From a virus (lineage: Duplodnaviria > Caudoviricetes), in IMG/VR virus record IMGVR_UViG_3300030104_001945, positions 234-64,233 of that record: a stretch of DNA of 64,000 nucleotides; one strand, written 5' to 3'. Shown here in pieces: positions 36,838-64,000 of this stretch. The translations under genes and the position numbers were made by a program. Position 1 is the first letter of the stretch. Each line of letters opens with the position of its first letter. A model generated the notes under the pieces. It was not told where the DNA came from. It was given only the letters and a program-made list of their open reading frames with translations, and did no database searches.

Positions 36838-38307
36838 CTAAATCCATTCTTTCCAGTTATCGCCGGTTATTGAATTGGCTAAAGAAAGTTTGTTTTTTAA
36901 ACTACTAAATATTTTTTCATCAATAGTTTTAGGAGTAACAAAATCAATATATGTTACATTATTTTTTTGACCAATTCTATGGGGTCTATCTTCTGATTGT
37001 AATCTTGCTTCTAAATCGTATGTATTAGCATAATAAATTACAGTTTTAGCTGCAGTTAAAGTTATTCCATACCCACCCATACGAGGATTAGCTACAATAT
37101 ATTTAAATTTACCATCTTGAAATTCATTAATAATTTTTTGTCTATCTTCTGATTTAGTTTCTCCAAAATAAGTTGCTACTGGTATTTTAAAATGTTCTAT
37201 TAATTTAGATTGTATTTCTTTTATAGACCTTTTATAATTAGCCCATATTATTACTTGACCTTCAGTTTCTTCTAGTACTTGAATTAATTCATTTAATCTA
37301 GGATTAGTACCAGGTATTGCTTCTTCAGTACCATCATCATGTTTAACAAACCCACATAAGACTTGATGAAGTCGTAGCAATCTAGTTATGACTAAAGGAG
37401 CAGTTATAGATTTTTCTTTAGATAATTCTACATAGGCTTTTTTACGAAGTGTTTCATATATTCTTTTTTGTTCTGGAGAAAATTCTATTTCTCTCTTTTG
37501 ATATAATTTATCGGGTAAATCTAAACAATCTTCTTTTGTTACTCTAAACATATGAGATTTAATAGATTGTTGAAGTTCATCTAAATTTTGATAATCGACT
37601 ACTTCGTGAAATGTTTTCATATTAATAGTTCTTCTGCGTAGTACACAGTATCTATTTCTAAACCCATAAAAACTACAATTTAAAACATACTCTGATAAAA
37701 AAGTCATTTGAGTATAAATATCAATAGGACTTTGTGTTATTGGAGTTCCTGTTAATACTCTCCTAAATTTAGATTGCTTTGATAACTTTAAAATATTTTT
37801 AGTTCTTCTCGCAGTTCTATGTTTAATGGTACTTGACTCATCAACTACGACTAATGATTTATGCACATTAAGAAAACGTTGAGTATAATTTAATCCTTTA
37901 GTTGTACTAAAAGCTTCTACATTAATAATAAATATTTTTAATTTATGAGTATCTTCTCTTAAAAAATCTTTCAATCTTTTTATATTGGATTTAGTTTCAA
38001 CTGGTTTCCAAAGTTCAATATGAGAATATTCTAGTACATCATCTGGCATATGAATTGGTATTTCTGATTGTTCCCAGTTTCTATATACACCTTTAGGAGC
38101 TATAATTACGGCTGCATTAATAGAACCTTTTCTATATAAATAAGCTATATTATCTACTATTACTTTAGATTTACCAGTACCTTGTTCCATAAACAAAGCA
38201 TAATATTCTTTATCCCTACTAATATTAAAAGCATCAAGTTGATGTTTAAATGGTTCAGTTTTAAATTTAAAGTCCTTAACTTTATCGTCACTAAATATGA
38301 TTTTCAT
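36838..38307 (-). CDS. SNF2-family (SF2) helicase
   Basis: MEQGTGKS, VVDES, LTGTP, GGYGITLT, QSEDRPHRIGQ; only credible minus-strand gene. Confidence 0.93.
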   Translation of the reverse strand: MKIIFSDDKVKDFKFKTEPFKHQLDAFNISRDKEYYALFMEQGTGKSKVIVDNIAYLYRKGSINAAVIIAPKGVYRNWEQSEIPIHMPDDVLEYSHIELWKPVETKSNIKRLKDFLREDTHKLKIFIINVEAFSTTKGLNYTQRFLNVHKSLVVVDESSTIKHRTARRTKNILKLSKQSKFRRVLTGTPITQSPIDIYTQMTFLSEYVLNCSFYGFRNRYCVLRRRTINMKTFHEVVDYQNLDELQQSIKSHMFRVTKEDCLDLPDKLYQKREIEFSPEQKRIYETLRKKAYVELSKEKSITAPLVITRLLRLHQVLCGFVKHDDGTEEAIPGTNPRLNELIQVLEETEGQVIIWANYKRSIKEIQSKLIEHFKIPVATYFGETKSEDRQKIINEFQDGKFKYIVANPRMGGYGITLTAAKTVIYYANTYDLEARLQSEDRPHRIGQKNNVTYIDFVTPKTIDEKIFSSLKNKLSLANSITGDNWKEWI

Positions 38308-53108: not shown

Positions 53109-53372
53109 ATGGTTCGTATCACGTGGTTAGATGCACGTGATACGGAAACCGGGTGGCTTGATATAAAAGATGTCATTGAAGCACCTTTAGCAATATGCCA
53201 AGAAGTTGGTTGGATGGTCGTTAATAATAATGAGAAAGTTGTTATTATGCGTTCTTACAGTAAAGATAAAGATGAAGTATCTGGCGGTGGGTCAATTGCT
53301 ATCCCTAAAGGTTGGATAACTAAAATAGAATACTTGGAGGTATCATATGGAGAAAGAAGCGATAATAGGTAA
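53109..53372 (+). CDS. Conserved small phage protein
   Basis: ITWLDA...GW...VGW...IPKGWI. Confidence 0.65.
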   Translation: MVRITWLDARDTETGWLDIKDVIEAPLAICQEVGWMVVNNNEKVVIMRSYSKDKDEVSGGGSIAIPKGWITKIEYLEVSYGERSDNR

Positions 53373-54051
53373 TGTATTCGGCAAAACTATTTATAAATCG
53401 TCAATCAAGGATCATCAATATTTAAATGGTAAAGTTGGACCTCTTATTAAGAAATTTGTAAAACAGAAACCAGGAAGTGTAGCTGCAACGACAGATGTAG
53501 AAGGTAATCTTAAAGCAACGATATTAGAAAATGCAGTTGATAATTTACATTTACAAGATGACTATAAAGAATTGTTTGATGCATTATCTTTTGATATAAA
53601 AGGATTTATGGCAGCGAAATCTTATGACGATAGTAAGTTTGATATAAACATTACTAAAGCATGGGCAACTTATACGAGTAAGGGACAAAATATCCCTTCA
53701 CATAAACATACTGCGTCACATTTTAGTTGTGTATATTATGTGCATAACGAAGGTATGGGCGATATTAAATTTGAACAGGAACTTTATTCTCATGATGGAT
53801 TTTTTATTCCACCAACAGAGGCTTATATAAAAGAATGGAATCAATTTAATTTTGCAAGTTATAAATTTGAAGTAAAGTCAGGGGATTTTATTATATTCCC
53901 CAGTAGTTTACTTCATCAAACTGAAACTAATAATAAAGATGATGCTAGAATAAGTATTTCAGCAGATATTCTTTTAACAATGAAAGAGGGGGTTAGTACA
54001 GAGCACTGTATTCCAAGTCCAAAAACTTGGAAAACAATATATACTTCATAA
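53347..54051 (+). CDS. 2OG-Fe(II) oxygenase (TIGR02466-like)
   Basis: HKH...SCVYY...GDFIIFPSSLLH...RISIS. Confidence 0.82.
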   Translation: MEKEAIIGNVFGKTIYKSSIKDHQYLNGKVGPLIKKFVKQKPGSVAATTDVEGNLKATILENAVDNLHLQDDYKELFDALSFDIKGFMAAKSYDDSKFDINITKAWATYTSKGQNIPSHKHTASHFSCVYYVHNEGMGDIKFEQELYSHDGFFIPPTEAYIKEWNQFNFASYKFEVKSGDFIIFPSSLLHQTETNNKDDARISISADILLTMKEGVSTEHCIPSPKTWKTIYTS

Positions 54052-57966: not shown

Positions 57967-58314
57967 ATGTTAAACGATGTAGATGTAAAAGAAATGCGAT
58001 TCAAGCAGTTATTAGAGTTGAATGCTAAAGCACTTCATGGAGGTAAAAATAGATATATCTCATTAGATTGGATTAAAGAAAACGAAGATAAATTGTTTCC
58101 TATAGGAAAAGTAGAAGGTGTTATGTCTTACACTAAACTAAAAGATATGAACTTTCTTATACCTTGGAAATTCGTTCATAATGAAGAACATTGGCGTTGT
58201 GAGATAATGTATTCTTCCGACCCAAGCGATACACCCCTATTTTTAGATATTGAATTCGAAGATTACAATAAATTACCATCAGCAACGAAAGGAGAAAAAC
58301 ATGAAACCCATTGA
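57967..58314 (+). CDS. Hypothetical early protein
   Basis: Own promoter (TATAAT at 57937) and AGAAAGG SD. Confidence 0.65.
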   Translation: MLNDVDVKEMRFKQLLELNAKALHGGKNRYISLDWIKENEDKLFPIGKVEGVMSYTKLKDMNFLIPWKFVHNEEHWRCEIMYSSDPSDTPLFLDIEFEDYNKLPSATKGEKHETH

Positions 58315-58454
58315 TCAATTTTGGAATCACGTAAGAATTTTACAGGAAGCGATGCGAAGGGCTTCGTCACCAGAACAAATACATTGGTGGCGTTTAAGGC
58401 TATCTAATTTTATGTTAAAATTAGAATCATACGAAAATAAGGCGTTAAATTAAC

Positions 58455-58660
58455 CTGTATATATAGAGAGCGAAATGATTTTACTGATTTTTTATTTTAC
58501 TAAATGGCAATCCCTAATCTCAATCCTCAATTCTCTATATCCACTACTAAAAACTAGGGATTACTAGTGATATTTACAAGTAATCCCTCTAATCTCCCGA
58601 GGCTAGACGCAATCTTAGGTCATTAACTCTGAGTTGTGAATTGGTCTCTATATAATAAAG
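58455..58660. repeat. Intergenic region with inverted repeats and AATCY iterations (candidate origin)
   Basis: TATATAGAGA 58460-69 / TCTCTATATA 58645-54; AGGGATTACT / AGTAATCCCT; repeated AATCC/AATCT. Confidence 0.45.
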
Positions 58661-58668
58661 GAAAAACA

Positions 58669-58734
58669 ATGGATTTTTTTACTATTTTGACTATATTAAT
58701 TGTCGGCGGTATCATATTAATGTTTAATTCGTAA
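58669..58734 (+). CDS. Hydrophobic micropeptide (21 aa)
   Basis: MDFFTILTILIVGGIILMFNS with AAAGGA SD. Confidence 0.45.
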   Translation: MDFFTILTILIVGGIILMFNS

Positions 58735-58798
58735 AATAAAGGTATTAAATGGATTTAATAAATTTTATAATTAATTATACGCAGAAAGGAGAATCAAT

Positions 58799-59149
58799 AT
58801 GCAAACACAATCTGCTGTAACTAGCTCCGGACAAAAACCCGCAGTTAGAAAGACTAAAGCAAAGCCAAAAGTAATTAGTACACCTAGTGATAAGACTGGT
58901 GTTTTAAAGTACGATGGCGATGCGAGAATACAACTACTAGCTCCTAAAAATCCTAAAAGAGTAGGGTGCGAGGGCTGGAAAAGATTTAATCTTTACAAAA
59001 ACGGTATGAAGATTAAAGATTTCATAAAAGCTGGTGGAAAAACAATAGATTTAGACTGGGACAGAGATAGAGGCTTTATCGCTACTGAAGATAGAGACAA
59101 AGTCGGGTCGCAGAGTAAGTCGCCTAAATCAACTTTTGATATGAAATAG
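58799..59149 (+). CDS. Basic protein, NPK...RF..YK family (distant paralog of 62671 and 63429)
   Basis: KNPKRVGCEGWKRFNLYKNGMKIKDFIKAGGKTIDLDWD; promoter and AGAAAGGAG SD. Confidence 0.75.
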   Translation: MQTQSAVTSSGQKPAVRKTKAKPKVISTPSDKTGVLKYDGDARIQLLAPKNPKRVGCEGWKRFNLYKNGMKIKDFIKAGGKTIDLDWDRDRGFIATEDRDKVGSQSKSPKSTFDMK

Positions 59150-59186
59150 TTGTGTACATGGCGTCAAAACATATTAATCTTGTTTT

Positions 59187-59385
59187 GTTAAAGGTATACT
59201 ACTGTACCTTTTTCCTCCGTAGAGTAGGGGGTTCCATGGTGGAGCCCTCTACAATTAGAGATTCGCAAGAAACTGTGCTTGCGAGGTCAAGGGCAGCAGA
59301 CGTGCTGTTAGCTGAAAATGACCATTAGGAAAGTTGAAACGATACATACTACCTATAAAAGCCCTAAGAGTTTTTCAGAAAGGAT
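59187..59385 (+). ncRNA. Candidate structured RNA or long leader
   Basis: Promoter-like GTGTAC-17-TAATCT at 59152-59180 followed by consecutive hairpins with G-U pairs. Confidence 0.45.
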
Positions 59386-59388
59386 ATT

Positions 59389-59613
59389 ATGACTATACAA
59401 AATAAAGATTACGAAATAGGATCCATTCAAGTCAAAGATAACGATTACATTGGAGAAGTTCAAGATTACAGATGTCCAAGTTGTGGAAACTATTCTGTTA
59501 TTGTAGATACTAGTGATAAAGATAGTGAATCTAATGGAAAACCTGGACACGAAACTTGTTTACATAATTGCGGGCCTTTATCGTTAAGCAGACTTTTAGC
59601 AATAGGAAGTTAA
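59389..59613 (+). CDS. Small zinc-ribbon protein
   Basis: CPSC...CLHNC; AGAAAGG SD. Confidence 0.6.
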   Translation: MTIQNKDYEIGSIQVKDNDYIGEVQDYRCPSCGNYSVIVDTSDKDSESNGKPGHETCLHNCGPLSLSRLLAIGS

Positions 59614-59674
59614 TTTTGGTTTAACTTGTTATTAAAAAGTTTATTATTAATAATAACAATAGAAAGGAAAACAT
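59613..59674 (+). promoter_or_regulatory. Early promoter plus SD
   Basis: GTTTAA(59619)-17-TATTAT, AGAAAGG. Confidence 0.75.
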
Positions 59675-59956
59675 ATGGCTTTATTAGTGTTTAGAAAGAT
59701 TTCAAGAGTGACTATTTATGAGCAGCATAAATTACCTTGCCATGTCTTTAATATAGAATATTATGACGGTACTCATGGCAGACTTACCGAAGAAGATTTT
59801 AACAGACTTAAAGAAGAACATACTAAACAATTACAAGATGATAAGAAAAAGGCTGATAAGATTTATCAAGAAGATATGGAAAGAGGCGAATTAGCAGGAG
59901 AAGCAGGAATGCTACACGGTATAGATGCTTATAACGAAATGAATGGAGATAGTTAA
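59675..59956 (+). CDS. Hypothetical early protein
   Basis: Promoter and SD. Confidence 0.65.
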   Translation: MALLVFRKISRVTIYEQHKLPCHVFNIEYYDGTHGRLTEEDFNRLKEEHTKQLQDDKKKADKIYQEDMERGELAGEAGMLHGIDAYNEMNGDS

Positions 59957-60326
59957 AATGGGATACACAAATTATTGGCACCAAAAAAGAAGTTTCACTG
60001 ATGCCGAGTGGAAAGAGTTAACACAAGAATATGACTACTTAAAAGATTGTGGTAGAATAGAGCCGTATGATGAGAATCCAGATCAGATAGCTTTTAATGC
60101 AAAAGGTAATGGTTGCGAGACCTTCGTGTTAAATAAAAATTTAGATGAGTATTTTAAGAGTGAGCACATGGGCTCTTATCGCAAAGAGAGATATGAAAAA
60201 GAAGGCCATCATTTTGATTTCTGTAAAACTCGTATGTTTAGCTACGATATAGATGTTTGGCATATGTTAACAGTAGCACGTGTAGTTGCTCCAGAAACTA
60301 TAACCGAAATATCAAGAGATAGATAA
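59943..60326 (+). CDS. Conserved hypothetical phage protein (start probably 59958)
   Basis: MGYTNYW...ETF...FDFCKTR...YD. Confidence 0.7.
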   Translation: MEIVKMGYTNYWHQKRSFTDAEWKELTQEYDYLKDCGRIEPYDENPDQIAFNAKGNGCETFVLNKNLDEYFKSEHMGSYRKERYEKEGHHFDFCKTRMFSYDIDVWHMLTVARVVAPETITEISRDR

Positions 60327-60550
60327 ATGACTAATAAAATTAAATGGATAGATGAAGAAAATTTAAACAATAGCTTTATTAATAAAGGTTATTTTTATAG
60401 TGCTTCTAAATTATATATTGAAGTCTGTGTTACTAGGATTAACAGGTTTGTTAGTAAACAAATTTTAGAGAAATTTTACAATAGACCTATTAGAGTTAGA
60501 GTTAGAACATGACTGAAATAAATACATATATAAGAACACAATTATAAATA

Positions 60551-60612
60551 AATTGTTTAATCGTGTTCTTAATAGTTTATTATTAAGAATAACAAAAAGA
60601 AAGAAGAACAAA
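60551..60612 (+). promoter_or_regulatory. Early promoter plus SD
   Basis: GTTTAA(60555)-17-TATTAT, AGAAAG. Confidence 0.75.
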
Positions 60613-60840
60613 ATGACTTTTAAATGGACTTCTAAAGAATCATATAGCGAAGAAAAAGGTCAAGAATACCACTTCGATACTCATTGTCCTATGTGTAAGT
60701 CAAAAGATACTATCACAGTTAAAGGACCAGACTTATTTAATTACAATATGGGAAAGCCTATTCAAGACGCCTTCCCTTATCTTAATAGCAATAAACGAGA
60801 AAAATTAATGACGGGCATCTGTTGTATGGAGGAAGATTAA
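60613..60840 (+). CDS. Small zinc-binding protein
   Basis: CPMC...IQDAFPYL...RE.LMTGIC; start reassigned to ATG 60613. Confidence 0.7.
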   Translation: MTFKWTSKESYSEEKGQEYHFDTHCPMCKSKDTITVKGPDLFNYNMGKPIQDAFPYLNSNKREKLMTGICCMEED

Positions 60841-60841
60841 A

Positions 60842-61195
60842 ATGGATAGTTTAACATTAAAAAAACCAAGTGATTTAAAAGAATTAGTTAGCACTCAAAA
60901 AATTAAGGGCTACATAGTTTTAGACGCATACGCAGAAGATTTAAAACCTAAATATAAAAACAAATTAGAAGAAAGAACATTGCATATGGGTCGATATAAT
61001 TTAGTTAATGACAAAATGTCAGACATTTATAATAAAGAACTTCAACCTATATTTAGAACATACGAAGAAGCATTTGGTTTCGCAGAATTTTCTTATGGAA
61101 ACCATCCATCGGGTGCTACCCATACAGTACACGAAGTAGAGATAACAGTTAAACCTACAATATTAGATATAAATGGTGGGAGGGACGAAGATTAA
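60842..61195 (+). CDS. Hypothetical protein
   Basis: GGAGG SD; ORF track. Confidence 0.6.
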   Translation: MDSLTLKKPSDLKELVSTQKIKGYIVLDAYAEDLKPKYKNKLEERTLHMGRYNLVNDKMSDIYNKELQPIFRTYEEAFGFAEFSYGNHPSGATHTVHEVEITVKPTILDINGGRDED

Positions 61196-61490
61196 AATGA
61201 CACCAGAAGAAATACAAAATCTAGTTCTCAGTGCATCTAAACAGCTAGACGATATTGATGTAAGTAAAGCAAAAGAAATAGGAAAAGGTCGAAGTGCTCA
61301 AGAATATTCATTTATCGTCTATCACGATAAAGCTCCTCTTACACCTAAAACTCAATTAGGAGAGGATATCACAATCGTAGATATGTATGATGGTTGTTTC
61401 AATGTTATATTCTACATTAGAACACACATACCATTTAAAGACATTAAAATCTATATGGACAGATACGAAGATATCCTTATAAATAAATAA
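61173..61490 (+). CDS. Hypothetical protein (start probably 61197)
   Basis: ORF track. Confidence 0.55.
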   Translation: MVGGTKIKMTPEEIQNLVLSASKQLDDIDVSKAKEIGKGRSAQEYSFIVYHDKAPLTPKTQLGEDITIVDMYDGCFNVIFYIRTHIPFKDIKIYMDRYEDILINK

Positions 61491-61552
61491 ATTGTTTAAT
61501 TATGTTTTAAAAAGTTTACTATTAATAATAACAAAAAGAAAGCGAGAATGAT
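61489..61552 (+). promoter_or_regulatory. Early promoter plus SD
   Basis: GTTTAA(61494)-17-TACTAT, AGAAAGCG. Confidence 0.75.
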
Positions 61553-61810
61553 ATGAAAGAAGGACGATTAAAATATGCCGAACTTTCTAATTATGACGAA
61601 GAAGCCGGACCTTTACTTTTTGAGGGAGAAGTCGTTGGAGATTGGAGAGAAGAACACGATAGTGCTTTAGGGACATATAAATATATTAGCCTTAACACTG
61701 AATTACCCATTAGACCTGGGGATAATATACAAGCTCATTTTCACGATCATTATTTTAGTGAGCAAGATATTATTGATAACATCTTAAAAATAAAAGGAAA
61801 AACAAAATGA
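61553..61810 (+). CDS. Hypothetical early protein
   Basis: Promoter and SD. Confidence 0.6.
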   Translation: MKEGRLKYAELSNYDEEAGPLLFEGEVVGDWREEHDSALGTYKYISLNTELPIRPGDNIQAHFHDHYFSEQDIIDNILKIKGKTK

Positions 61811-62015
61811 ACGCCTTAACAAATCTATTAAAAAAGAATAAAGACAAAACTGAATTACTTGTTTTTATTCTTCAAACTTTGGATAAAGAATTTAATGCTG
61901 AAGTTCAATCAACTGATAACCCTATTGGATTAATTAGGGATAAAATTGATAGAATATTAAATAAATAAAAACCTATACATTTAACCTCCGATAAGATAAA
62001 TTGGAGGTTAATTAT

Positions 62016-62453
62016 ATGGATAACATTATAGAATTTTCTGAGGTCGAGAATAAGATTTTATCAGACAAAGAAAAAAAGTTCGTCAATAACATTATAGCAG
62101 GTTTAACCAAGAAAAGAGCGGCATTAGAAGCTGGTTATGCCGAATCGTCAGCTCACGTACAAGCCACCCGCCTACTAAAGAAGGATAAAATCCTGAGGGC
62201 GGTGAGCCGAGGGCGGGCGGTCCATGCCCAACAGTCCATTCACACTCTCGACAAGGAGGTTGAGAAGCTGGACGTGTTGTATGAGGCGGCAGTTGCGAAG
62301 AAGCAACTCGGAGCAGCGGTGCAGGCTGCACGGTTGAAGGCCCAACTCTTGGGGTACTTGGTTGAGAAGAAAGAAGTCAAACACTCCGTCCTTGACACGA
62401 TGAGTGATGATGAGTTGATCACCTACCTTGACAAGTTAGCCTCCGCAGGTTGA
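62016..62453 (+). CDS. terS: Terminase small subunit
   Basis: LSDKEKKFV...AALEAGYAESSAHVQATRLL HTH typical of TerS; GGAGG before ATG 62016. Confidence 0.85.
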   Translation: MDNIIEFSEVENKILSDKEKKFVNNIIAGLTKKRAALEAGYAESSAHVQATRLLKKDKILRAVSRGRAVHAQQSIHTLDKEVEKLDVLYEAAVAKKQLGAAVQAARLKAQLLGYLVEKKEVKHSVLDTMSDDELITYLDKLASAG

Positions 62454-62600
62454 GTGTTGTTGCGGGATGCAGGCGGCATCAGCCTTCCTCCACCGTCCTC
62501 CGCCCGCTAGGCGGCGGTAGGATGCGGCGTGAGGCGGAGCCGATTATATATATTTCATCGACCTGGACTCCTAACAAAGTTATTAACATTTATTATTTTT

Positions 62601-62670
62601 AATTGTTTCTTTTTGTTCTAAAAAATCGTATTATAAGCCATAGCAAAAAAGCTATAGAAAGCGAGAACTT
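62601..62670 (+). promoter_or_regulatory. Early-type promoter plus SD
   Basis: TTGTTT...TATTAT(62629), AGAAAGCG. Confidence 0.65.
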
Positions 62671-63057
62671 ATGTCTCAGAATAAAAAATTTCCGACTTCA
62701 CTTAAAGTCCTGGAAAATCGCGCAATTATGTTTCTTTATGTTAATCAAAAGAAACCGTCAGGAAAAGCCTTTGCACGATACGATAAATACAAAACAGCGA
62801 ACAGTATTACAGAAGCCGTGGACCGTGGGTGGACACCGCTAGACATGCAATACGAAACGAAAAGCAATAACCGCTTTAAAAAGTTCGTGACTATGTGTTT
62901 CATCGAGGGTGTCAATATAACGAAAGAAACCAAGGACATCCTAGAGTTCGTTATCAAAAAGAATAGAGAGGTACTCAAAGACCTACCGAAAGCTATTCAA
63001 GAAAAAGCGAAAGCGAACATCGACAAATTCGATAAATTAGCACAATCAATAAAATAA
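62671..63057 (+). CDS. Hypothetical basic protein, paralog of 63429..63824
   Basis: NKKFPTSLKVL, YETKSNNRF, TKETKD match the downstream ORF. Confidence 0.8.
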   Translation: MSQNKKFPTSLKVLENRAIMFLYVNQKKPSGKAFARYDKYKTANSITEAVDRGWTPLDMQYETKSNNRFKKFVTMCFIEGVNITKETKDILEFVIKKNREVLKDLPKAIQEKAKANIDKFDKLAQSIK

Positions 63058-63065
63058 ATAATTAC

Positions 63066-63098
63066 AGGGGGCGTCACACCGGCGCCCTCGTTTTTTTT
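63066..63098 (+). terminator. Intrinsic terminator
   Basis: GGGGGCGTC-ACACC-GGCGCCCTC followed by T8. Confidence 0.8.
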
Positions 63099-63132
63099 AT
63101 TGAGCATTGAGCCACAGCACTCCGCCGCCCTG

Positions 63133-63178
63133 CGGGTGAGTTGAGCATTAAGCTTCGGGTGAGTTGAGCATTAAGCTT
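63133..63178 (+). repeat. Perfect 23-bp tandem duplication
   Basis: CGGGTGAGTTGAGCATTAAGCTT at 63133-63155 and 63156-63178. Confidence 0.95.
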
Positions 63179-63327
63179 CGGTTATATATGCATAAGCATA
63201 TATATAGATAATAAAAAATAGAGATAATATATTATAAAATACTTAAACCAAACTAAAATTTTAACGATTTTATAGTTGTTTATAGTGATTTTACGATAGA
63301 TTATTAATAGATATAGAAAGGAAAATT

Positions 63328-63384
63328 ATGACGATTTTAATTATAATTATCGCTTATTTTATAGTTTTAAGCTTTACTTTTTAA
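63328..63384 (+). CDS. Hydrophobic micropeptide (18 aa)
   Basis: MTILIIIIAYFIVLSFTF with AGAAAGG SD. Confidence 0.5.
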   Translation: MTILIIIIAYFIVLSFTF

Positions 63385-63428
63385 TAAATAATCTATAATA
63401 ATATAGATAGAAAGGAGAAATATAGAAA

Positions 63429-63824
63429 ATGGAAAATAGTAATAAAAATAAAAAATTTCCTTCTTCGCTTAAAGTATTAGCGTCTAATAAAATTCTTTTT
63501 AGATTAATAAATATAAAAAGAGAAAATACTAGATCGTACGATATATTCGAAGAAAGTAAATTTTCGACTACTATTAAAGATTTATTTACTTTAACGAATT
63601 ATCGTAAAGTAGATTATTCTTACGATACTAAAGAGAATAATCGCTTTTCTACTATAAGATTAATAGTAGAAAATAAAAACGATACTAAAGAAAATAAAGA
63701 CGAATTAATTTCTATTATCGAAGAAAATAAAAAGTATTTAAACGATAAAGAAAATAATATTCGTAATAGAAAAGCTATCGAAGAAAATATTTTATTCTTC
63801 GAAGAAAAAATTTCTAATCTTTAA
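63429..63824 (+). CDS. Hypothetical protein encoded without CA/TG/CC/GG dinucleotides
   Basis: AGAAAGGAG SD; protein lacks Q, H, C, W, G and internal M and has a single P; paralog of 62671. Confidence 0.8.
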   Translation: MENSNKNKKFPSSLKVLASNKILFRLINIKRENTRSYDIFEESKFSTTIKDLFTLTNYRKVDYSYDTKENNRFSTIRLIVENKNDTKENKDELISIIEENKKYLNDKENNIRNRKAIEENILFFEEKISNL

Positions 63825-63847
63825 TTACTAAATATATATTTAATAAT

Positions 63848-63883
63848 AAATCTCTCTAATTAATTTTAGAGAGATTTTTTTTT
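63848..63883 (+). terminator. Intrinsic terminator
   Basis: AAATCTCTCTAA / TTAGAGAGATTT plus T-run. Confidence 0.75.
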
Positions 63884-64000
63884 ATTTTTAAAATTAGTAA
63901 TCGAATAAAAAAATAAATCGTATTAAGTTTAATCGTAAAAAAATCGTATAAGTTTCTTTTACGATTTCGAGAAAGTTCGTGGGGTACGACTAAGCTTTAT

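What the first reader, a model, noticed from the sequence alone, without database searches (positions are those of the whole stretch)
58799..63824. Three-member paralog family showing a gradient of dinucleotide purging
Seen: 62671 and 63429 share NKKFP(T/S)SLKVL, Y(E/D)TK(S/E)NNRF and TKE(T/N)KD. 58799 shares the core N.K..G....R(F/Y)..YK....I.(D/E)....G....D..(W/Y). 58799 has ordinary composition, 62671 has only one TGA and many CGA on the coding strand, and 63429 has no CA/TG/CC/GG beyond its start and one Pro codon. Each sits behind promoter-like and SD elements. Inference: a stepwise cascade in which the least modifiable copy is expressed first and the protein (DNA- or RNAP-binding?) licenses transcription, entry or protection of modified DNA.
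Basis: partly seen in the sequence, partly recalled or inferred. Interest (0 to 1): 0.75.

Follow-up and report, generated by a model that had tools for sequence, protein, structure and literature searches.

The report
Paralogous phage genes with graded dinucleotide ban
An uncultured marine phage keeps two copies of a small DNA-binding-type gene, one written entirely without four two-letter DNA steps and one only partly so, which suggests that something in the infected cell reads those steps on one DNA strand.

Summary
ORF B (62671) and ORF C (63429) are full-length paralogs (33% identity, E 2e-17). ORF A (58799) shares only a ~40-60-residue core with them (hhalign 92%; 98.7% through an intermediate set). 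This "NPKR" domain has no Pfam, NCBIfam or PDB match.

The purge is real, graded and strand-ordered:
- A is ordinary.
- B is depleted of TG/GG on its coding strand only (2.4th percentile; TGA 1, CGA 13).
- C lies in a ~790-nt island almost free of CA/TG/CC/GG on both strands.

The layout TerS-B-C-TerL recurs in the 44 related loci (many contigs hold only part of it), with TerL identity 62-98%. In a second clade the B-type copy has lost TG/GG completely but keeps 30-35 CA. Six C-type 5' regions there have no ATG/GTG/TTG start, and they or close relatives read AAAGCGAG or AAAGAGAG where others read AAAGGAG. Leaky C copies leak only CA/CC.

So the strictest rule is "no 5'-C(A/C)-3' on the template strand". 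Generic restriction-site avoidance is rejected. The cause is unknown. The leading candidates are the phage's own context-dependent cytosine hypermodification and a defence enzyme that reads the dinucleotide.

The scan has noted dinucleotide-free early islands before on other DNA (e1-5693167, e1-5341439).

The parts
58799..59149 (+). ORF A, 116 aa. Basic N-terminal tail plus one NPKR-type domain (residues ~37-98). Ordinary dinucleotide composition.
62658..62665 (+). Ribosome-binding sequence of B, written AAAGCGAG (no GG). The same variant occurs in fully purged relatives.
62671..63057 (+). ORF B, 128 aa, full-length paralog of C. Coding strand depleted of TG/GG (23) and TGA (1), enriched in CpG (22) and CGA (13). 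CA/CC not depleted (38).
63067..63099 (+). GC-rich intrinsic-terminator-like hairpin plus T run, ending the B unit.
63100..63180 (+). TGAG-rich block with an exact 23-nt tandem repeat at the left border of the island.
63190..63980 (.). Island nearly free of CA, TG, CC and GG on both strands (10 observed, 72.7 expected). CpG-rich, 19-24% G+C.
63329..63385 (+). 18-codon hydrophobic mini-ORF inside the island, behind AGAAAGGAAAA. Not studied further.
   Evidence: reading of the sequence
63411..63417 (+). Shine-Dalgarno AAAGGAG of C, one of the few tolerated GG in this lineage.
63429..63824 (+). ORF C, 131 aa, the purged paralog. No Gly, Trp, Cys, His or Gln, no internal Met, one Pro. AF2 model pLDDT 91.
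63848..63877 (+). Terminator-like hairpin plus T run after C, built without the banned dinucleotides.
63919..63929 (+). CGTATTAAGTT, a non-coding 11-mer kept in 36 of 44 related loci at the right end of the island, and also at the left end in clade II.

Best explanation
B and C are two self-contained transcription units, each with its own ribosome-binding site and terminator. Both encode the same small basic protein: an N-terminal NPKR-type three-helix domain, probably nucleic-acid binding, plus a C-terminal helical hairpin. A carries the same domain alone.

The two genes are written under a ban whose strictest form is 'no 5'-C(A/C)-3' on the template strand', which is the same as no TG or GG in the RNA-like strand. 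C and all its flanking signals obey the ban on both strands. B obeys it on the template strand only, partly in this lineage and completely in a sister clade. A does not obey it.

My reading (inferred, not shown) is that a strand-reading process acts at this dinucleotide. The leading candidate is the phage's own context-dependent decoration of its hydroxymethyl-type cytosines, which would obstruct the unassisted host RNA polymerase on the template strand. On this reading C is the copy that can be transcribed from virion DNA with no help. Its product, then B's, binds the modified genome and allows or organises its use. The rest of the genome, A included, is read afterwards.
For: Shown:
- The ban is at the dinucleotide level, not the site level. 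C/G-containing palindromes without the banned steps are at or above expectation in 7 islands (TCGA 44 vs 6.9, ACGT 19 vs 6.9, CGCG 13 vs 0.4).
- It is under selection. In L019 and L021 the free runs are 1004 and 973 nt (P about 1e-40 and 1e-36). Of 24 loci examined, giving 17 distinct C 5' regions, 6 have no in-frame ATG/GTG/TTG and open with ATA four nt after AAAGCGAG or AAAGAGAG.
- It is strand-ordered. Of 60 distinct gene copies, 26 are purged on both strands. 13 are purged of TG/GG only (TG 0-5, GG 0-4, CA 30-35). The 4 leaky C copies leak only CA/CC (3-12 CA, 1-3 CC), with TG and GG <=1 each.
- The ban also covers candidate promoter DNA, spacers and terminators, so it is not only an mRNA property.
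- Among + strand ORFs >=40 aa, only the B-like and C genes pass p<1e-4. In the window this is 1 of 144.
- The banned step is cytosine-centred, and the phage has a cytosine-modification cassette including a C5-MTase homologue. Its TS-like enzyme reads Asp where the dCMP/dUMP rule of PMC8670742 (passages read) puts Asp for dCMP (E. coli numbering recalled).
- Dinucleotide-specific post-replicative base modification exists in phages (NTC, NTG; PMC13229309, section 8 read).
- The NPKR domain sits next to glucosyltransferase and hydroxymethylase genes in PhiJL001.
- All family proteins are net basic, +4 to +17.
Against: - No modification has been measured, and its context is unknown.
- If all C is replaced at the nucleotide level, as the TS/MazG/kinase set suggests, the C's that remain in the island (in CG and CT) are modified too. 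A second, context-specific step must then be assumed.
- In L021 a ~300-nt stretch with two + strand mini-ORFs has the opposite asymmetry: 28 of 28 C followed by G/T, with many TG/GG. The template-strand idea explains this only by assuming leftward transcription.
- Window B still has 23 TG/GG.
- PhiJL001 has the domain and modification genes but no purged stretch.
- No fold or sequence match shows that the domain binds DNA.
- The time of expression is unknown.
- The geometry 'RNA-like strand lacks UG/GG' fits an RNA- or ssDNA-reading host enzyme equally well.
Confidence: 0.35

Rival explanations
1. Escape from a host (or phage shut-off) enzyme that reads 5'-(T/G)G-3' on mRNA, or on the exposed non-template DNA strand of highly transcribed early genes. 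Candidates are a dinucleotide-specific ADP-ribosyltransferase, nuclease or deaminase. B/C would be the counter-defence or takeover factor that must still be made under attack, so only these genes are written without the target.
For: The strictest ban is on the RNA-like strand. Only the B-like and C genes show it. [quoted passage not shown] The non-template strand is more exposed than the template strand in a transcription bubble, which would explain a strict sense-strand ban with a laxer antisense ban. Earlier scan notes report strand-specific TC/CC-free and GG/CC-free early islands in unrelated phages (unchecked).
Against: No enzyme with TG/GG specificity is known to me or was found in the papers I read. 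A pure mRNA target does not explain the antisense ban, or the purging of spacer and promoter-candidate DNA over up to 1 kb. The domain has no resemblance to known anti-defence proteins.
Confidence: 0.3
2. Classical restriction avoidance in the first-injected end. The island enters first and is kept free of recognition sites until an anti-restriction function is made.
For: The island lies between TerS and TerL, next to likely packaging signals. The contig ends overlap by 97 nt inside the island's right border. Motif loss confined to the leading injected region lets Autographiviridae escape a Type I system (PMC12455610, abstract read).
Against: 12 of 16 palindromic tetramers remain allowed, and TCGA, ACGT, AGCT and CGCG are over-represented. 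The ban reaches single ATG and GGAG elements. B-type copies are purged on one strand only, which a double-strand site cannot explain. The proteins are basic, unlike DNA mimics such as Ocr (Ocr's acidity is recalled). The genome ends are not determined.
Confidence: 0.07
3. Translation or RNA-structure optimisation. An mRNA without UG and GG has no internal start codons or Shine-Dalgarno-like sites and little structure, which would give clean, fast translation of an early protein.
For: Every canonical start codon contains UG and the SD core contains GG. The sense-strand ban is the strictest.
Against: In 6 of 17 distinct 5' regions the gene's own start codon and SD are rewritten too. The ban also covers the antisense strand and non-coding DNA. 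No other phage gene shows it.
Confidence: 0.05
4. No function: local hypermutation, foreign DNA or an assembly artefact.
For: The island has low G+C (19-24%) and C-to-T-like products (TA, TC, GA enriched).
Against: The ORF is intact. The island is present in 40 of 44 loci from many samples. It is kept while the protein diverges to 36-45% identity. Compensatory rewriting (GCGAG, ATA) is seen. Fourteen runs hold at least half of the sampled words of this stretch.
Confidence: 0.03

Closest known systems
[quoted passage not shown]
   Same: A short stretch holding the first-needed gene is kept free of a target, while the rest of the genome is not.
   Different: Here the target is a dinucleotide class, not a 6-8 bp site. 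The ban is graded by strand, it rewrites the start codon and SD, and it comes with a duplicated gene. The position at the entering end is unproven.
Dinucleotide-specific nucleic-acid-modifying defence enzymes (CmdT: GA in ssRNA, PMC11618068; DarT2: TNTC in ssDNA, PMC12945103)
   Same: They show that two- to four-letter steps on a single strand can be the unit of attack. This is the only kind of reader that fits a one-strand ban.
   Different: No known enzyme reads TG/GG (or CA/CC). Evasion of these systems by motif-free genes was not reported in the passages I read.
Sequence-context-dependent post-replicative base modification in phages (5mYOX T-dioxygenases NTC/NTG, PMC13229309; CAjan preQ0 at two motifs, PMC7544227, listing only)
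   Same: Phage DNA modification can be limited to a dinucleotide context, so a modification-free zone can be written by avoiding that context.
   Different: No TET/JBP-type gene was found here (that search also rang in no control genome, so it is uninformative). The window's cassette looks like a nucleotide-level hydroxymethyl-C pathway plus unknown extras. No unmodified island has been described for those phages in what I read.
Phage-encoded proteins that bind modified phage DNA (SPO1 TF1, which prefers hmU DNA; recalled, not searched successfully)
   Same: A small basic phage protein made early that handles the phage's own modified DNA is what the best explanation proposes for B/C.
   Different: TF1 is an HU-type protein. 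B/C have an unrelated, unclassified domain, and binding is untested.
PhiJL001 gp18 (AY576273.1), the only deposited phage protein found with the NPKR domain
   Same: Same domain (hhalign 97.4% to the domain set, 94.9% to the A family). Marine phage of about 64 kb. Related PolA (34% identity) and TS-like gene (31%). It lies beside a glucosyltransferase gene.
   Different: 62% G+C genome with no dinucleotide-free stretch and an ordinary gp18 gene. Single copy, with a different architecture (the domain is at the C-terminus of 151 aa).

Membership tests
NPKR-type domain family (unnamed; consensus I.F...NPKR.GS.S..RYE.YK.ATT..EA...G....DL.YD..GF) | Profile-level similarity over the ~50-residue core | tested here: met
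   A family vs domain set: 98.7%, E 2e-16. B/C family vs domain set: 98.9%, E 1e-17 (not independent, since the set was found with the B/C profile). A vs B/C directly: 92.3%, E 5.6e-7.
NPKR-type domain family | Coverage by a curated model or a solved structure | tested here: not met
   No Pfam, PHROG or NCBIfam family at E<=0.01 for A, B or C or for 13 further members. No PDB sequence match for the core.
Helix-turn-helix / winged-helix DNA-binding domains | Three-helix core with a recognition helix; structural match to a solved HTH | tested here: inconclusive
   The AF2 model of C (pLDDT 91.2) has strand 21-24, helices 35-43, 49-55 and 60-66, and strand 78-80. Foldseek PDB: best E 3.2. VIA-align wide: best Z 4.3. 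BFVD: best E 0.64, which is PhiJL001 gp18. The domain was not folded alone.
DNA-mimic anti-restriction proteins (Ocr/ArdA type) | Strongly acidic surface | tested here: not met
   Net charge +4 to +17 in all 27 aligned family members. That these mimics are acidic is recalled knowledge.
Restriction-site avoidance | Depletion of defined palindromic or bipartite sites on double-stranded DNA | tested here: not met
   Allowed C/G palindromes are at or above expectation. There is a one-strand ban in 13 B-type copies.
Leading-end / pre-early region (T7 or T5 type) | Location at the genome end that enters first | not testable with these tools
   All 24 runs found are kept as contigs, so no read ends are available. 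There is a 97-nt end overlap of the contig, but IMG/VR classes the record as linear without end repeats.
Escape from a dinucleotide-specific RNA/ssDNA modifier (CmdT/DarT type) | Target absent from the attacked strand only | tested here: inconclusive
   Met for clade II B-type copies (TG/GG 0-7, CA 30-35). Not met for C islands, which are purged on both strands and in non-coding DNA.

The most novel reading that the evidence does not exclude
The phage decorates its cytosines only where they are followed by A or C. That adduct stops the host RNA polymerase when it lies on the template strand, much as glucosylated base J stops transcription in kinetoplastids (recalled). The NPKR proteins would then be readers of the modified DNA that license its transcription. 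The purged copy C would be a bootstrap gene, the only one readable on naked virion DNA. The same NPKR domain in eukaryotic PHD-finger proteins would be a reader of hydroxymethyl or glycosylated bases.
Probability: 0.15. Interest if true: 0.92.

Novelty: new variant of a known kind. Interest (0 to 1): 0.8.

Why it matters
A DNA-level rule strong enough to remove six amino acids from a protein, replace ATG by ATA and rewrite GGAG as GCGAG implies a reader of single dinucleotides on one strand. No such reader is known for TG/GG or CA/CC. The paired design, one gene inside the ban and its paralog half inside, is kept in an abundant group of marine phages by repeated duplication or gene conversion. 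This gives a natural control for experiments, because the same protein is written two ways. It also links an unclassified domain that is widespread in viruses and present in at least one eukaryote transcript to hydroxymethyl-pyrimidine DNA. With the earlier notes of GG/CC-free and TC/CC-free early islands in unrelated phages, it suggests that dinucleotide-free bootstrap genes may be a general and undescribed feature of phage infection strategy.

Tried and rejected
- **Whole-protein fold searches.** PDB Foldseek, VIA-align wide and BFVD gave nothing significant. The AF2 model of A was too poor to use (pLDDT 41.8).
- **Homodimer test.** Complex prediction for C gave no verdict (score 0.10, mark 0.42). 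It says nothing either way.
- **RNA-library contigs.** Four runs were laid on 61800-64000. Short pieces cover parts of TerS, B (62769-62975) and C (63327-63850). Contigs cannot show strand, ends or level, and DNA carry-over is possible, so they are not used as evidence of expression.
- **Genome termini.** No raw reads are available.
- **Deposited phages.** blastn of 58000-64000 and tblastn of A and of a clade II B copy gave no match. Only a generic domain member hit PhiJL001.
- **ESM Atlas.** Only unnamed viral clusters.
- **TET/JBP family in the genome.** No match, but the control genomes did not ring either, so this is uninformative.
- **C5-MTase homologue vs PDB.** Best hit is M.HaeIII, in the catalytic domain only, so no inference on specificity.
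- **Promoter scan.** Matches equal chance.
- **B's TGA-free run.** At 358 nt it is not exceptional within this one genome (other runs are 387, 333 and 315 nt). It counts only because 15 of 17 B copies have 0-2 TGA against 6-9 expected (L020 and L025 have 5).
- **Replication-origin model** (lagging-strand exposure). Rejected, because B lies left of the island yet is purged on the + strand.
- **Mutation-bias model.** Rejected, because opposite asymmetries occur on the same strand in one locus.
- **Literature.** Searches for a described dinucleotide-free phage island listed nothing of the kind. This covers only the held library. The PhiJL001 genome paper is not held. Supplements (e.g. the specificity tables of PMC13229309) were not opened.
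- **Co-occurrence with modification genes in clade II.** Not testable, because contigs are <=13.8 kb.

Full report
**Setting.** The window is nearly all of a 64,233-nt virus record whose last 97 nt repeat its first 97 nt. All but one of the ORFs over 150 aa lie on the + strand (the helicase gene at 36838-38307 is on the - strand). The order of genes is as follows:
- TerL (136-1647), portal, capsid and tail genes, helicase and primase.
- A base-modification and replication block: NAD-epimerase/dehydratase, UvrD-type helicase, SAM-methyltransferase, C5-cytosine-methylase homologue, MazG-type pyrophosphatase, an unknown 353-aa protein, a P-loop kinase-like protein (weak AAA_28 and thymidylate-kinase matches, below Pfam's cut-offs), a thymidylate-synthase-like enzyme, dCMP deaminase and PolA.
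- Many small ORFs including A (58799).
- TerS (62001-62453), B (62671), C (63429), and round to TerL.

The TS-like protein reads ...WPYDNF..., with Asp at the place where modified-cytosine phages have Asp instead of Asn (rule from PMC8670742, passages read; the E. coli numbering is recalled).

**The proteins.**
- B and C align over 112 residues at 33% identity, E 2e-17.
- A gives nothing by BLASTP.
- Each has its own set of close relatives in marine metagenomes, none named.
- hhalign of the A family (A2, 18 rows) against the B/C family (A3, 27 rows) gives 92.3%, E 5.6e-7, over 40 columns.
- A profile of A3 searched against 1.84 billion representatives found 71 proteins at E<=1e-3. Beyond the family itself, many hit only profile positions ~18-67.
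- These hits carry the motif I.F...NPKR.GS.S..RYE.YK.ATT..EA...G....DL.YD..GF, once or twice per protein. Some are long proteins with PHD fingers. One 1198-aa protein comes from a eukaryote transcriptome and has a sub-threshold TET-associated glycosyltransferase match, 19.9 bits against a cut-off of 27.5.
- Fourteen short members (A4) match the A family at 98.7%, E 2e-16, and the B/C family at 98.9% (not independent).
- No Pfam, PHROG, NCBIfam or PDB sequence match exists for this domain.
- AlphaFold2 on A3 gives a confident model of C (pLDDT 91.2, pTM 0.84). It has a strand, three short helices (35-43, 49-55, 60-66), a strand, then a long helical hairpin at 87-129. No fold search gave a significant match.
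- All family members are net basic.

I therefore call A, B and C carriers of one unclassified, probably nucleic-acid-binding domain. B and C are true paralogs, and A is a distant domain relative.

**The purge in the window.**
- CA+TG+CC+GG per 200 nt averages 34 (sd 8) across the window and falls to 0-6 only at 63201-63900.
- On the + strand, C followed by A/C occurs at 63248-9 and 63459 only, between 63198 and 63999. G preceded by T/G occurs at 63277, 63286, 63320, 63329, 63414 and 63430-1 only, between 63190 and 63979.
- C therefore encodes no Gly, Trp, Cys, His or Gln, no internal Met and one Pro.
- B's total of the four steps is ordinary (61), but it is lopsided. TG+GG is 23 (2.4th percentile of 387-nt windows). 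CA+CC is 38. The ratio is at the 0.4th percentile. TGA is 1 (0.4th percentile). CGA (13) and CpG (22) are above every other window.
- B's ribosome-binding sequence is AAAGCGAG, without GG.
- A is ordinary.

**Relatives.**
- Forty-four loci from viral and metagenome contigs show the order A ... TerS-B-C-TerL wherever the contig is long enough, with TerL identity from 98% down to 62%.
- Of 60 distinct family gene copies:
  - 26 are purged on both strands.
  - 13, the B-type copy of a second clade, are purged of TG/GG only (TG 0-5, GG 0-4) while holding 30-35 CA.
  - 15 are clade I B copies (TG 5-13, GG 3-11, CA 27-38).
  - 2 are B copies with weak depletion (L020, L025).
  - 4 are leaky C copies (L003, L016, L024, L028), whose leaks are CA/CC only (CA 3-12) with TG and GG <=1.
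- All 30 C-type copies have TG<=2 and GG<=2.
- The longest stretches with none of the four steps are 1004 nt (L019) and 973 nt (L021), against about 88 and 80 expected occurrences.
- In 6 of 17 distinct 5' regions of C (24 loci examined) there is no in-frame ATG, GTG or TTG. The frame opens with ATA directly after a stop, four nt behind AAAGCGAG or AAAGAGAG. Other lineages keep ATG behind AAAGCGAG, or ATG behind AAAGGAG.
- Terminator hairpins inside the islands are also built from allowed steps.
- Among + strand ORFs of 40 aa or more in six sources, only the B-like and C genes deviate at p<1e-4.
- B-type copies have 0-2 TGA in 15 of 17 loci, against 6-9 expected.
- A maximum-likelihood tree puts clade I B and C as sister groups. 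It nests clade II B-type copies among clade II C copies. The pair has therefore been renewed by duplication or gene conversion. Composition bias would push the other way.

**What the ban is not.**
- It is not general restriction-site avoidance. TCGA, ACGT, AGCT and CGCG are over-represented in the islands, and a one-strand ban cannot concern a double-strand site.
- It is not mutation bias. In L021 one stretch of the + strand has 28 of 28 C followed by G/T with many TG/GG, while B nearby has the reverse.
- It is not an artefact, given its conservation and the compensatory rewriting.

**What it may be.** The hierarchy has three levels: a strict ban on TG/GG in the RNA-like strand, a laxer ban on the other strand, and a total ban including spacers in the island. 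This points to a process that reads one strand during or before transcription. Three geometrically equivalent readings remain:
- (a) a lesion or adduct at 5'-C(A/C)-3' on the template strand;
- (b) attack on 5'-(T/G)G-3' in the exposed non-template strand;
- (c) attack on UG/GG in the mRNA.

Reading (c) alone does not explain the antisense and non-coding purging. I prefer (a), with the phage's own cytosine decoration as the adduct, for four reasons. The step is cytosine-centred. The phage has the genes. Dinucleotide-specific phage base modification is documented (PMC13229309). And the domain sits beside glucosyltransferase and hydroxymethylase genes in PhiJL001, a distant relative by PolA (34%). 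The margin over (b)/(c) is small. For those readings CmdT and DarT2 are precedents. PhiJL001 itself has no purged stretch.

**Verdict.** The scan has noted dinucleotide-free early islands with other banned sets in unrelated phages (unchecked notes), so this may be one case of a wider, undescribed phenomenon. Here it is made unusually informative by the paralog pair.

Noticed in passing
window 63919-63929; 36 of 44 loci: The non-coding 11-mer CGTATTAAGTT is kept across lineages whose TerL is only 62% identical. It lies about 100 nt after C, and in clade II also before C (spacing ~590 nt). In the window a near-copy follows 26 nt later (ATCGTATAAGTTT). It could be a promoter written without TG, or an operator.
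   Followed up: partly
L021 3390-3690 (also L019 5290-5500): Two + strand mini-ORFs for hydrophobic peptides lie just left of the island. All 28 C are followed by G or T, while TG/GG are abundant. This is the opposite one-strand purge to that of B.
   Followed up: partly
window 63904-64000 = genome 1-97: The record's last 97 nt repeat its first 97 nt, inside the right border of the island. IMG/VR classes the record as linear without end repeats. Many related contigs also break within or next to the island.
   Followed up: no
window 62393-62451 and 63101-63165: Clusters of TGA/TGAG (8 in 60 nt; 6 in 65 nt, the latter in an exact 23-nt tandem repeat) flank the almost TGA-free gene B.
   Followed up: partly
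L045 11812-12267 (AY576273.1, PhiJL001 gp18): A 151-aa protein with a C-terminal NPKR domain lies 1.3 kb upstream of an annotated glucosyltransferase and 2.8 kb upstream of a hydroxymethylase-like gene. It was also the top (non-significant) BFVD structural hit of the C model.
   Followed up: yes
window 63329-63385: An 18-codon hydrophobic mini-ORF with its own ribosome-binding site lies inside the purged island, upstream of C.
   Followed up: no
window 53347-54051: A 2OG-Fe(II) oxygenase homologue (phrog_81, E 3e-32) lies outside the modification cassette. Its link to DNA modification was not examined.
   Followed up: no
P0151, P0155, P0177, P0156: The NPKR domain occurs twice per protein in long metagenome-derived proteins that carry PHD fingers (P0151, P0155, P0177). 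It also occurs in one eukaryote-transcriptome protein (P0156), which has a weak TET-associated glycosyltransferase match.
   Followed up: partly
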